DNA of 64,000 nt from Candidatus Heimdallarchaeota archaeon. GTDB lineage: Archaea > Asgardarchaeota > Heimdallarchaeia > Hodarchaeales > Hodarchaeaceae. Below the pieces are notes generated by a model that saw only the letters and a list, made by a program, of their open reading frames with translations, ran no database searches and was not told the origin of the DNA. This document shows positions 21,097 to 29,963 of this stretch, piece after piece; within the stretch, counting starts at the first letter, position 1, and each line of letters starts with the position of its first letter. A program made the translations under genes and the position numbers. Location: contig RDOB01000002.1 in NCBI GenBank assembly GCA_011364965.1, forward strand, positions 128,001-192,000, in the 5' to 3' direction.

Positions 21097-22335
21097 TCAT
21101 TCTTCCTCTTCACCCTTAAGAAAAGAAATTTTGCCAATAACAGCCTGATTTAAGTCATCATCAGCGTTTTTTTCACTTTCTTCGTCTTTTTCCTCCTCCT
21201 CTTCTGCTTCGGGTTCTACTTCAGCAGTTTCACTTTCTTCGTCTTTTTCCTCCTCCTCTTCTGCTTCGGGTTCTACTTCAGCAGTTTCACTTTCTTCGTC
21301 TTTTTCCTCCTCCTCTTCTGCTTCGGGTTCTACTTCAGCAGTTTCACTTTCTTCGTCTTTTTCCTCCTCCTCTTCTGATACTGTTTCAATATCTTCTTCC
21401 TCTTCTGATTCCCAATCACCCATCAATCTTCGTAATCTCCAAAGCATTTGAAGTTTTAAACGTCGACTTTCATTGTCAAATCCAAAATCATGAGCAAATT
21501 TTGGTGTTGTTGTGTATACTGATGATCTTGCCCGTGTTTCACCTATTATGTATTCTCTATCTTCAAGCTGTTTACATATTTCATTTATTCGAAGTGGCCC
21601 AATACCTTTTACGATTTTTTTGACCATTGCGACAGATATTGGTTGTCGATAGGCTATCTCGGTTAAGATTCTTCTTACATCTTCTTCCATGAATAGGTGA
21701 GGAACTTGCATTTGAAAAAAATCATGATATAAGGGATTTAATTGAAGCACCCATCGATCCTTTGAAATTTCTTCGATAACTATTGGAGAGTTCTTTTTAC
21801 GATTTCTTGATACTTTTCGGATCGCTCTTTTGACAACAGGGGATTCTTCTTGTAAAAACTCAATTAACTCATCAGCATGAATGGGTCTTCCAATTGAGAA
21901 AAGTGCTCCTTCAATTCTTTCTTCAAGAGTGATTGGCGGTAGTATTCTCTTGGGTTTGAAATATAATTCCAATTTATCTTCTTTTTCTTTCGTTGATTCC
22001 ATAAACATTTCAGGTGAAATGAAATCATCATAAGAGTCAATTTCATTATTTAAGATGCTTTCAATATACCTAGGAGGTGATAAATACTCTGAAACTATGG
22101 ATGTATCTTCTACTATGGTTTCTGGGGAAACTTTTTTTAGGATTTCAAATTTCTCTTCGAATGGCTTTTCTGATGGTAGACTTAAAACTTCATTCGACTC
22201 TTGTGTTGATTCAATTTGAGTAGTACCTTCAGTAGAAACTGGAGATATAACCTCTTTAATAGATTCCTCATCCTCTTCTTTTTTCTTGCTTATTTCTTTC
22301 TTTTCTTTTCCCTTACGTCGAAATAAACGAAACAT
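21097..22335 (-). CDS. scpB: ScpB/KITE-family protein (paralogue 2) with long N-terminal extension and acidic repeat tail
   Basis: IEGALFSIGRP, EIAYRQPIS and VYTTTPKFAHDFG match the tandem winged helices of ScpB. Located near smc/scpA. Confidence 0.8.
   Translation of the reverse strand: MFRLFRRKGKEKKEISKKKEEDEESIKEVISPVSTEGTTQIESTQESNEVLSLPSEKPFEEKFEILKKVSPETIVEDTSIVSEYLSPPRYIESILNNEIDSYDDFISPEMFMESTKEKEDKLELYFKPKRILPPITLEERIEGALFSIGRPIHADELIEFLQEESPVVKRAIRKVSRNRKKNSPIVIEEISKDRWVLQLNPLYHDFFQMQVPHLFMEEDVRRILTEIAYRQPISVAMVKKIVKGIGPLRINEICKQLEDREYIIGETRARSSVYTTTPKFAHDFGFDNESRRLKLQMLWRLRRLMGDWESEEEEDIETVSEEEEEKDEESETAEVEPEAEEEEEKDEESETAEVEPEAEEEEEKDEESETAEVEPEAEEEEEKDEESEKNADDDLNQAVIGKISFLKGEEEE
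21171..21377. repeat. Perfect 57-bp tandem repeat, about 3.6 copies (encodes EEEEEKDEESETAEVEPEA)
   Basis: Identical units visible directly in the sequence with period 57. Confidence 0.97.
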
Positions 22336-22354
22336 AATACATCACTACAATAAA

Positions 22355-29300: not shown

Positions 29301-29963
29301 TAGCTGAGTCCAATGTTCTGCGTCATCTTTTTCTTTTCTTAGCGATTCAACTCGTTTTGAAACCTCACTCACTAATAACTGGAGTTCATCCATTCGTCTA
29401 TTAGCTTCATCCAATTCCACTAACGCTGATTGCTTCTTCTCATCAAATTGTCCCACACCTGCTAGATTTTCCATTAACTTTCTTCGTTCAATTGGATTCA
29501 TTCCGACTATCTCCCCCACTTGACCTTGAGCAATAATATTATATGAATTTATTACATCAATCCCAGCGATTCTCAATTTGTCCAAAATATCTGTCCTTGT
29601 TGTCCTTTTACCATTTAATCTATAAGTACTTGACCCATTACGTTTCAACTCACGAGAAACTATAATCTCTTTCTCCTTTAAAGGAATCAAAAAATCAGAA
29701 TTATCAAATATTATTTCAACAGTTGCTTTATCTGCTGGTTTTTTCCCTCCTATCCCGTTATAAATCAAACCAATCATTTTATCGGCACGCATGCTTTTCT
29801 TAGACATTGCTCCTAAGCAGAAATTTATACCATCAATACTATTTGATTTTCCACTTCCATTAGGGCCAACAATGACAGTAAAGCCTGTGGCAAGGGGCAT
29901 ACGCACTGTTCCAGGACCATAAGATTTCCAACCAGTCATTTTGATTTCTTTGATGTGAACCAT
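26382..29963 (-). CDS. smc: Chromosome segregation protein SMC
   Basis: Walker A GPNGSGKSN, Q-loop QGQV, two coiled coils, hinge GX6GX3GG (GDVFYSNGIIFGG), PVNMRA, signature MSGGEK, Walker B LDEIDAALD, ISH. Confidence 0.97.
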   Translation of the reverse strand: MVHIKEIKMTGWKSYGPGTVRMPLATGFTVIVGPNGSGKSNSIDGINFCLGAMSKKSMRADKMIGLIYNGIGGKKPADKATVEIIFDNSDFLIPLKEKEIIVSRELKRNGSSTYRLNGKRTTRTDILDKLRIAGIDVINSYNIIAQGQVGEIVGMNPIERRKLMENLAGVGQFDEKKQSALVELDEANRRMDELQLLVSEVSKRVESLRKEKDDAEHWTQLDNEVKKLKALLISFAFHKNSEGIKKFDDEISEFRTNQEALITERDGKTANIDETTEKIRNLEDQTIRLETSLKEIRSNIEEKNIEKAKIDEKTEYNNKTLQTNENRMKQLEERLIQIEKKKEEDLQTKSQLEEGKRELIAKIEETQTQKSSVEKDLEAKNEEYDDIKNEYDDAERRYRIENDRLTKTQVSFEVSQNMVTAFQNNVNEYEKRQKELDEQININQTKLNELKQIIEEDTTKTSETQQRMEEIQEKKQNIENTILTLDSETRQLNDQYIVKKARIDTISSFLKAESGKENPAVSFISEKANSGEISGVLGEFQNISREGETLPSEVGHLSDAIITDTIDTAIFCIKMLKENAIGAANFIPLEQFKLKLEDKFSNIVKKIKEQNEIIDNLNEAVNIWRKGKQTVTTTDGDVFYSNGIIFGGFHLVSAQETINQLIIERDETEEKLNLKKNELKEVQTSLKKLNDLENVIVKSLEKLEKNIQNNTIALNQQENEIKLYRENIEKNKGEIKPLLQQLADRTRSRDEQEQEMHQYEKTIEEIAQEMNEIETRLEAADTRPLLEQMNQIEQKLGKLQGRLTGIDSRIESLTKSKEEREARILETQEEINALKVENANLEGELEAISEQKEQIGIQLKQILEKEDSITDEMKEVKSDLSTQKKYQGQLVKDKERLNEKITQLEEKITSIKLQRERFSVEIENLQNEAVANNIEILSADAEELKKIKESKITEDIESKSAEKKRLEPVNMRALKEFQEENSRYIELLDRRDILIEERQVILDFIEDIETEKYTVFMKTFRSVNKHFGSIFNELSGGDARLILEKDPKKGEDIFEGGLFIEAHPAGKRVASLEAMSGGEKALTALAFIFAVQTVDVQPFYILDEIDAALDPMNVRRVAKLLHRMSRSVGQDEGDEDQRKKKSTPGAQFLVISHRDILMAWADRLYGCTNVKGLSSIFSIQMSEDKQLERATSF

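What the first reader, a model, noticed from the sequence alone, without database searches (positions are those of the whole stretch)
21097..29963. SMC-kleisin locus with two divergent ScpB/KITE paralogues: candidate heterodimeric-KITE SMC complex
Seen: smc and scpA (10 bp apart) are followed on the same strand, after one inserted gene, by two tandem ScpB-like genes 19 bp apart. These have diverged in complementary ways. 22355-22915 keeps the IIEAAL first winged helix but has lost the IAY.QP motif. 21097-22335 keeps IAYRQP and YTTTPKF..FG and has gained long charged extensions. Established: prokaryotic Smc-ScpAB uses a homodimeric ScpB, whereas eukaryotic Smc5/6 uses the heterodimeric KITEs Nse1/Nse3. 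Inference: this archaeon may assemble a condensin-like SMC with an asymmetric KITE pair, either an intermediate towards or a parallel to eukaryotic complexes.
Basis: partly seen in the sequence, partly recalled or inferred. Interest (0 to 1): 0.85.

Follow-up and report, generated by a model that had tools for sequence, protein, structure and literature searches.

The report
Two-ScpB Smc locus of Hodarchaeales
This Asgard archaeon (order Hodarchaeales) has one Smc chromosome-folding ATPase and one kleisin but two old, very different ScpB ("kite") genes in tandem. They probably pair with each other, which would parallel the Nse1-Nse3 pair of eukaryotic Smc5/6 but arose separately.

Summary
On the minus strand lie smc (26382-29963), a diverged scpA kleisin 10 bp downstream (25484-26371), and two ScpB genes 19 bp apart (22355-22915, 186 aa; 21097-22335, 412 aa). 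Both ScpB genes pass the Pfam PF04079 cut-off and both fold as tandem winged helices.

The short-then-long pair occurs in all 22 Hodarchaeales genomes that have any ScpB, out of 24 searched. Other Asgard genomes searched have one canonical ScpB or none. A few Loki-type genomes have a second, unlinked kite beside a second SMC.

Each paralogue forms a clade with 100/99 support that spans both families of the order, so the duplication is old. Both are under purifying selection. The most complete genomes of the genus have one SMC, one kleisin and two ScpBs.

The best reading is a ScpB-short/ScpB-long heterodimer on the single ScpA (confidence about 0.5). Pairing was not tested here. Six euryarchaeal ScpA-ScpB pairs failed to bind in vitro.

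The "intermediate towards eukaryotes" reading is not supported. Both genes are ScpB-type, not Nse1/3-type.

A 2024/25 preprint lists the two genes for one genome in a supplementary table without comment. This scan reported the same pair before in three other Hodarchaeales genomes.

The parts
26382..29963 (-). smc: the only canonical SMC ATPase in the genome (1193 aa), with a strongly diverged hinge
   Evidence: TIGR02168 scores 575.6 bits (cut-off 567) and TIGR02169 614 bits. It is the only full-length SMC match in G000. The hinge scores 17.9 bits on PF06470, against 114-117 bits in other Asgard SMCs.
25484..26371 (-). scpA: diverged kleisin (295 aa, GTG start), 10 bp after smc
   Evidence: It has no Pfam ScpA hit. 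A canonical Asgard ScpA HMM built here hits it at E 6.6e-21 as the only match in the genome. Its own profile hits PF02616-positive ORFs upstream of canonical scpB at 1e-9 to 1e-12. It aligns end to end with canonical ScpAs.
23070..25481 (+). TrmB-HTH plus long helical-rod gene, inserted on the opposite strand between scpA and the scpB pair (genus-specific; role in the complex unknown)
   Evidence: PF01978 TrmB matches residues 10-73. The gene is present in all 10 genus loci examined and absent from both loci of the sister family.
22916..23069 (.). AT-rich divergent intergenic region upstream of scpB-short and the TrmB gene (likely promoters)
   Evidence: Read from the sequence. No function was tested.
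22355..22915 (-). scpB-short (186 aa): tandem winged helix plus C-terminal helix, with the QP motif of the second winged helix replaced
   Evidence: PF04079 scores 65.8 bits. The AF2 model has pLDDT 84.9. Foldseek top hits are ScpB structures 6juv, 3w6j and 4i98. The clade has 100/99 support. dN/dS is 0.04-0.23.
22336..22354 (-). 19-bp spacer between the two scpB genes, holding a GTGAT Shine-Dalgarno-like word and no terminator
   Evidence: Read from the sequence. The terminator scan found nothing here.
21934..22335 (-). scpB-long N-terminal tail (residues 1-134), predicted disordered, with conserved short motifs MFRLFRR+basic, ETPFEE.F and FISPE
   Evidence: pLDDT is about 45-66. The motifs are conserved across orthologues, and MFRLFRR also in the sister family. 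The motif is unique in the genome.
21421..21933 (-). scpB-long core (residues about 135-305): tandem winged helix plus basic C-terminal helix RRLKLQMLWRLKRL
   Evidence: PF04079 scores 55.9 bits over residues 140-288. pLDDT exceeds 90. Foldseek top hits are ScpB structures. The clade has 100/99 support.
21097..21420 (-). scpB-long acidic C-terminal tail with a 57-bp repeat (21171-21377, 3.6 identical copies); variable between species and absent in the sister family

Best explanation
The locus encodes a condensin-type Smc-ScpAB complex in which the usual ScpB homodimer has been replaced by a heterodimer of two old paralogues.

Shown:
- There is one SMC, one kleisin and two ScpB-fold proteins.
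- The two scpB genes are co-oriented, 19 bp apart and conserved throughout the order.

Inferred:
- The two proteins pair through their N-terminal winged helices, the better-kept domain in both.
- Together they sit on the central region of the single ScpA.
- Each has specialised for one of the two non-equivalent positions that a ScpB homodimer already occupies on ScpA in bacteria.
- The second winged helices have diverged differently to fit those two positions.
- The long paralogue's conserved N-terminal motifs and acidic tail add a lineage-specific tethering or regulatory function.
For: - Both proteins pass PF04079 and are confident tandem winged helices. ScpB crystal structures are their best fold matches.
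- The short-then-long pair is present in all 22 Hodarchaeales genomes that have any ScpB, out of 24 searched.
- In the sister family the order is smc-scpA-scpBshort-scpBlong on one strand with no insert.
- Each paralogue forms a 100/99 clade that holds both families, so both copies have been kept since before the families split.
- dN/dS is 0.04-0.26 for both.
- The five most complete genus genomes each have one SMC, one kleisin and two ScpBs. The window's own genome shows the same counts. The second kite therefore has no second SMC or kleisin to serve.
- In one relative smc lies about 68 kb away, while scpA stays next to the pair.
- Each paralogue is closer to canonical Asgard ScpB than to the other.
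- The N-terminal winged helix is better kept than the C-terminal one in both. Against the canonical N-terminal profile the short and long copies score 51 and 40 bits. Against the C-terminal profile they score 25 and 33 bits. Canonical proteins score about 99 and 115 bits.
- Established knowledge: ScpB homodimers bind asymmetrically to one ScpA (PMC4442127). The dimer forms through the N-terminal winged helices (PMC7055376).
Against: - No direct test of pairing was possible.
- Six euryarchaeal ScpA-ScpB pairs failed to bind in vitro (PMC7055376), so kite function of archaeal ScpB is itself disputed. Genetics in T. kodakarensis does place smc, scpA and scpB in one pathway (PMC11840125).
- No fused short-long protein was found (weak evidence).
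- Sisterhood of the two clades is only weakly supported (38/46).
- Co-occurrence and an operon structure fit alternating homodimers equally well.
Confidence: 0.5

Rival explanations
1. Two alternative homodimers. ScpB-short homodimers and ScpB-long homodimers compete for the same ScpA and give two flavours of the one Smc complex, for example basal versus tethered or regulated through the long tails.
For: Both keep the N-terminal winged-helix motif used for homodimerisation in known ScpBs. Only the long copy has tails with conserved short motifs, which suggests a distinct accessory role. There is a single SMC and a single kleisin.
Against: Tight translational linkage is seen in every genome: a 19-bp spacer here and a fixed gene order across the order. 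That suggests the two are made together in fixed amounts rather than used alternately. Both copies have lost residues that are invariant in canonical ScpB, as expected once neither has to do the whole job alone.
Confidence: 0.17
2. One paralogue remains the kite and the other has left the complex. That second copy would have taken on a new role, for example as a winged-helix DNA-binding or adaptor protein that is merely co-transcribed.
For: Winged-helix domains readily become DNA binders. MAGE proteins are a precedent for kite paralogues leaving the SMC complex (discussion in PMC7055376). The short copy has lost the QP and FG motifs of the second winged helix.
Against: Neither copy looks canonical. 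Both score about 56-66 bits on PF04079, against 100-130 for single-copy Asgard ScpBs. So there is no obvious 'conserved kite plus free paralogue' pattern. The pair has stayed adjacent across the whole order.
Confidence: 0.15
3. Neither protein binds ScpA, as reported for euryarchaeal ScpBs. Smc-ScpA would be a binary complex, and the two ScpB-like proteins would act beside it on DNA.
For: Six archaeal ScpA-ScpB pairs showed no binding in vitro (PMC7055376). The Hodarchaeal ScpA is too diverged for Pfam to recognise.
Against: The genes sit in the smc-scpA operon in the sister family. scpA stays with the pair even where smc has moved away. The ScpA middle region is well conserved between the two families. 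T. kodakarensis genetics puts ScpB in the Smc-ScpA pathway (PMC11840125).
Confidence: 0.13

Closest known systems
Bacterial/archaeal Smc-ScpAB (B. subtilis; G. stearothermophilus ScpA-ScpB2, PDB 3W6J; S. pneumoniae, PDB 4I98; P. yayanosii ScpB, PDB 6JUV)
   Same: It has the same gene set and order: smc, scpA, scpB. Both ScpBs are PF04079 tandem winged helices, with these structures as best fold matches. The kleisin is homologous to ScpA.
   Different: There are two strongly diverged ScpB paralogues instead of one. They share 25% identity in the first winged helix and 15% in the second. One carries long disordered tails. The kleisin and the SMC hinge fall below the Pfam cut-offs. Both ScpBs fall below the TIGR00281 equivalog cut-off.
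Eukaryotic Smc5/6 kite pair Nse1-Nse3 on the kleisin Nse4 (PDB 7DG2)
   Same: The proposed architecture is the same: two different tandem-winged-helix kites on one kleisin.
   Different: There is no sequence signal for Nse1 (PF07574) or MAGE (PF01454) at E up to 1. Fold matches are weak, with Foldseek E about 1e-3 against 1e-11 for ScpB. Pfam found no RING domain. The SMC is condensin-type, not Smc5/6-type. The duplication is separate and confined to Hodarchaeales.
Archaeal double SMC complexes described by van Hooff et al. (bioRxiv 10.1101/2024.01.07.573240)
   Same: That work concerns the same group of organisms. Its Supplementary Table 3 lists two adjacent 'ScpB-like kite' genes (MDVS01000047.1_4 and _5) after the SMC and kleisin of Heimdallarchaeota LC_3.
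   Different: The paper treats kite paralogues as belonging to different SMC complexes, and it does not discuss the tandem ScpB-like pair. In this genus only one SMC and one kleisin were found.
Second SMC plus second ScpB-like kite in some Lokiarchaeia-type Asgards
   Same: It is a second PF04079 kite in an Asgard genome.
   Different: That kite is unlinked to the canonical scpB and sits directly after its own second SMC. It does not match the Hodarchaeal paralogues at E 1e-6.

Membership tests
ScpB / kite (PF04079) | Sequence match to PF04079 above the gathering cut-off | tested here: met
   The short copy scores 65.8 bits and the long copy 55.9 bits, against a cut-off of 27.4. Both cover profile positions 2-153 of 160.
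ScpB / kite (PF04079) | NCBIfam equivalog TIGR00281 cut-off (89.2 bits) | tested here: not met
   The long copy scores 54.1 bits and the short copy 41.2 bits. Both are diverged members, not equivalogs.
ScpB / kite (PF04079) | Tandem winged-helix fold | tested here: met
   AF2 gives pLDDT 84.9 for the short copy and above 90 for the long-copy core, each with two helix-helix-helix-strand-strand units. ScpB structures are the top Foldseek hits at E 1e-11 to 1e-8.
ScpB / kite (PF04079) | Gene linked to smc and scpA | tested here: met
   Same strand and same locus here. The genes form a contiguous operon in the sister family.
ScpB / kite (PF04079) | Dimerises through the N-terminal winged helix and binds the ScpA central region | not testable with these tools
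   Only single-chain predictions were available.
Nse1/Nse3 (MAGE) kites of Smc5/6 | Sequence match to SMC_Nse1 (PF07574) or MAGE (PF01454) | tested here: not met
   Neither family appears at E up to 1 for either protein.
Nse1/Nse3 (MAGE) kites of Smc5/6 | Partner SMC of the Smc5/6-related type and an Nse4-type kleisin | tested here: not met
   The SMC matches prokaryotic SMC models TIGR02168 and TIGR02169. The kleisin matches Asgard ScpAs that carry PF02616.
Nse1/Nse3 (MAGE) kites of Smc5/6 | Two different kites forming a heterodimer on one kleisin | not testable with these tools
   Two different kites and one kleisin are shown. Pairing is inferred only.
ScpA kleisin (PF02616) | Sequence match to PF02616 | tested here: not met
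   No hit for this protein or its orthologues, and none in five relatives' genomes.
ScpA kleisin (PF02616) | Homology to recognised ScpA proteins over the N-terminal domain and C-terminal winged helix, plus position next to smc | tested here: met
   The Hodarchaeal profile hits ORFs upstream of canonical scpB at E 1e-9 to 1e-17, and four of those are PF02616-positive. The reverse HMM hits this protein at E 6.6e-21. The alignment runs end to end. The gene lies 10 bp from smc.
SMC (TIGR02168 / TIGR02169) | Full-length match with heads, coiled coil and hinge | tested here: inconclusive
   TIGR02168 scores 575.6 bits, above its cut-off of 567.35. TIGR02169 scores 614.3 bits, below its cut-off of 729.4. 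The hinge scores 16.7-17.9 bits on PF06470, below the 22.5 cut-off.

The most novel reading that the evidence does not exclude
The ScpB duplication predates the split between Hodarchaeales and the eukaryotic stem. In that case the condensin/cohesin-type complex of the first eukaryotic ancestor already carried two non-equivalent kites on its kleisin. Those two sites would later have been taken over by the A-type and B-type hawks. The evidence does not exclude this: the duplication is at least as old as the order, and the backbone of the ScpB tree is unresolved. Nothing here supports it positively.
Probability: 0.06. Interest if true: 0.9.

Novelty: new variant of a known kind. Interest (0 to 1): 0.6.

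Why it matters
Prokaryotic SMC complexes are the textbook case of symmetric parts (an SMC homodimer and a kite homodimer) bound by one asymmetric kleisin. Eukaryotic complexes use different paralogues at each position.

A natural Smc-ScpAB with two specialised ScpBs would show the homomer-to-heteromer step happening in a prokaryote, in the archaeal order usually placed closest to eukaryotes.

It would also give a simple system for asking what the two non-equivalent kite positions do. And it would be a fresh test of whether archaeal ScpB binds ScpA at all, which is disputed (PMC7055376 versus PMC11840125).

Tried and rejected
- Nse1/Nse3 or MAGE membership is rejected. There is no Pfam signal and only weak fold matches.
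- The short paralogue is not an orthologue of the 'second kite' that sits beside a second SMC in some Loki-type genomes. That kite finds no Hodarchaeal match at E 1e-6 and has a different gene context.
- The idea of a shared M-x-R-L-F N-terminal motif in the kleisin and ScpB-long is rejected for the kleisin. Its orthologues start MAELE.... The motif is real and conserved in ScpB-long only.
- A fused short-long protein was not found (weak evidence).
- A third ScpB in one genus genome (G018, contig 70) groups with Loki-type sequences and is probably contamination. The same applies to a Hodarchaeum-type long copy in an f4 genome that is 64% complete.
- A PDB profile search with the kleisin gave only a non-significant hit to the P. 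furiosus ScpA C-terminal domain (E 0.82).
- A multimer prediction was not possible with the tools on hand.
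Full report
**What is there**

- smc lies at 26382-29963 on the minus strand.
- A 295-aa ORF follows 10 bp downstream, at 25484-26371.
- An 803-aa gene lies on the opposite strand at 23070-25481.
- Two more minus-strand genes follow, 19 bp apart: 22355-22915 (186 aa, 'short') and 21097-22335 (412 aa, 'long').

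Both of the last two match Pfam SMC_ScpB (PF04079) across profile positions 2-153 of 160. They score 65.8 and 55.9 bits against a cut-off of 27.4. Both fall below the NCBIfam equivalog cut-off. They are the only two PF04079 matches in the genome, which is 2.97 Mb and 87% complete.

To each other they are barely alignable. BLASTP gives E 0.004, and only over the first winged helix.

**Fold**

AlphaFold2 with alignments of orthologues and canonical Asgard ScpBs gives two winged-helix units and a C-terminal helix for the short protein (pLDDT 84.9). The core of the long protein (residues about 135-305) gives the same fold with pLDDT above 90. Its N-tail (1-134) and acidic C-tail (306-412) are predicted disordered.

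The best Foldseek matches for both are ScpB crystal structures: 6JUV, 3W6J, 4I98 and 2Z99, at E 1e-11 to 1e-6. Other kites (JetB, MukE, Nse1-Nse3, MAGE) follow at about 1e-3.

**The kleisin**

The 295-aa protein has no Pfam ScpA hit. Three results nevertheless show that it is a diverged ScpA:
- A profile of its orthologues hits the ORF just upstream of canonical scpB in other Asgard genomes at E 1e-9 to 1e-17. Four of those ORFs carry PF02616, and three of them also the Rad21/Rec8 C-terminal domain.
- An HMM built from those canonical ScpAs hits this protein at E 6.6e-21, as the only match in the genome.
- The alignment runs from the N-terminal helical domain to the C-terminal winged helix.

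Its middle region is well conserved between the two families of the order.

**Distribution**

Names attached to close homologues place the genome in Hodarchaeales, genus Hodarchaeum.

Of the 24 genomes of the order held, 22 have ScpB. All 22 have the pair, always short then long, adjacent and co-oriented. The two genomes without it are 71% and 80% complete.

In the second family of the order the four genes are contiguous on one strand: smc, scpA, scpB-short, scpB-long. In the genus of the window, a TrmB-HTH/helical-rod gene has been inserted on the opposite strand between scpA and the pair.

I surveyed 221 Asgard genomes. Other lineages have a single ScpB scoring 100-130 bits, or none. Within the class, 47 genomes of four families gave no match to either PF04079 or the long-paralogue profile.

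A few Loki-type genera have a second, unlinked ScpB-like gene. It sits directly after a second true SMC and is not close to either Hodarchaeal paralogue.

**History**

In a maximum-likelihood tree of 61 Asgard ScpBs, the short and the long proteins each form a clade with 100/99 support. Each clade holds both families of the order and sits on a long stem. The duplication is therefore at least as old as the order.

The two clades lie together on one side of a branch, but with weak support (38/46). A Hodarchaeales-specific tandem duplication is the simplest reading but is not shown. Long-branch attraction could give the same result.

Each paralogue resembles canonical ScpB more than it resembles the other. 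I scored both against profiles of canonical Asgard ScpB (median bits):

| Profile | Short | Long | Canonical |
|---|---|---|---|
| First winged helix | 51 | 40 | about 99 |
| Second winged helix | 25 | 33 | about 115 |

Both copies have thus diverged mostly in the second winged helix, and in different ways. The short one lost the QP and FG motifs. The long one lost other conserved glycines. Both lost several residues that are invariant in canonical proteins.

**Selection and stoichiometry**

For the least saturated species pair (dS 0.5-0.7), dN/dS values are as follows:

| Gene | dN/dS |
|---|---|
| smc | 0.07 |
| scpA | 0.05 |
| scpB-short | 0.09 |
| scpB-long (tails included) | 0.26 |

The five most complete genomes of the genus (94-99% complete) each have one SMC, one kleisin and two ScpBs. 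The window's genome shows the same counts. In one relative, smc lies about 68 kb from scpA, while scpA stays beside the pair.

The 19-bp spacer holds a Shine-Dalgarno-like GTGAT and no terminator.

**Mechanism**

[quoted passage not shown] The dimer forms through the N-terminal winged helices (PMC7055376). The two protomers are therefore already non-equivalent.

In this lineage there is no second SMC or kleisin. The two paralogues are always encoded together, and both have kept the first winged helix better than the second.

I therefore think the most likely arrangement is a short-long heterodimer on the one ScpA, with each partner fitted to one position (confidence about 0.5). This step is inferred. 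I could not run a multimer prediction.

The main caveat is that six euryarchaeal ScpA-ScpB pairs did not bind in vitro (PMC7055376). [quoted passage not shown]

The rival readings are alternating homodimers, one paralogue having left the complex, and no ScpA binding at all.

**The long paralogue's tails**

The N-terminus MFRLFRR followed by basic residues is conserved in both families of the order and is unique in the genome. The motifs ETPFEE.F and FISPE are conserved within the genus. After the second winged helix comes a conserved basic helix, RRLKLQMLWRLKRL.

The acidic tail varies between species and is missing in the sister family. Here it contains 3.6 identical copies of a 57-bp repeat. 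These look like short docking motifs plus a labile acidic spacer. Their partners are unknown.

**Relation to eukaryotes and to the literature**

Neither protein shows any Nse1 or MAGE signal, and the SMC is of the prokaryotic condensin type.

Van Hooff et al. (bioRxiv 10.1101/2024.01.07.573240) derive Nse1/Nse3 from a separate archaeal 'Nse1/3-like' kite lineage. They assign kite paralogues of Hodarchaeales to different SMC complexes. Their Supplementary Table 3 does list two adjacent ScpB-like kite genes after the SMC and kleisin of Heimdallarchaeota LC_3. I found no discussion of that pair in the main text or the supplementary text. I found no other paper on ScpB paralogues.

I did not find the following described anywhere:
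- that the pair is universal in the order;
- its age;
- the single-SMC context;
- the heterodimer reading.

The pair is best seen as a parallel to Nse1-Nse3, not a precursor.

This scan reported the same pair earlier in three other Hodarchaeales genomes, with the same reading. I treat those reports as leads only.

**Verdict**

The feature is real. It is a new variant of Smc-ScpAB. Interest is moderate to high (0.6), because the key claim of pairing can be tested directly but is still untested.

Noticed in passing
window 23070-25481 (+): A TrmB-type HTH protein with a helical rod of about 570 aa sits between scpA and the scpB pair. It is present in all 10 genus loci examined (39-48% identity) and absent from the sister family's operon. 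In T. kodakarensis the TrmB-family protein TrmBL2 is a roadblock that positions Smc-ScpAB (PMC11840125), so a functional link is conceivable.
   Followed up: partly
window 26382-29963 (-), hinge near 28188-28301: The SMC hinge scores only 17.9 bits on PF06470 (cut-off 22.5), against 114-117 bits in other Asgard SMCs. Together with the Pfam-invisible kleisin, this suggests the whole complex has evolved fast in this genus.
   Followed up: partly
window 22315-22335 (-), first residues of scpB-long: The N-terminal motif MFRLFRR followed by a basic run is conserved in both families of the order and occurs nowhere else in the genome. Its binding partner is unknown.
   Followed up: partly
window 21171-21377: A 57-bp repeat, 3.6 copies at 100% identity, encodes the acidic tail of scpB-long. 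It is evidently a very recent expansion.
   Followed up: yes
L052:2272-3273 (-), also L033 and L056: Loki-type Asgard ScpA kleisins carry an N-terminal SAP/HeH (LEM-like) DNA-binding domain (alignment).
   Followed up: no
L069:2546-10185; also L070, L071: Some Loki-type and related Asgard genomes have a second true SMC directly followed by a second ScpB-like kite, with no kleisin between them. In L069 the neighbours are a MoxR-type AAA ATPase and a VWA protein.
   Followed up: partly
L073:3925-4281 (-): One Loki-type genome has a gene fragment of 119 aa, consisting only of the second winged helix of ScpB, about 1 kb downstream of its canonical scpB.
   Followed up: no
window 20567-21088 (+): A Ras-family small GTPase gene (PF00071, E 1.6e-49) lies convergent with scpB-long, 8 bp from its stop codon.
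   Followed up: no
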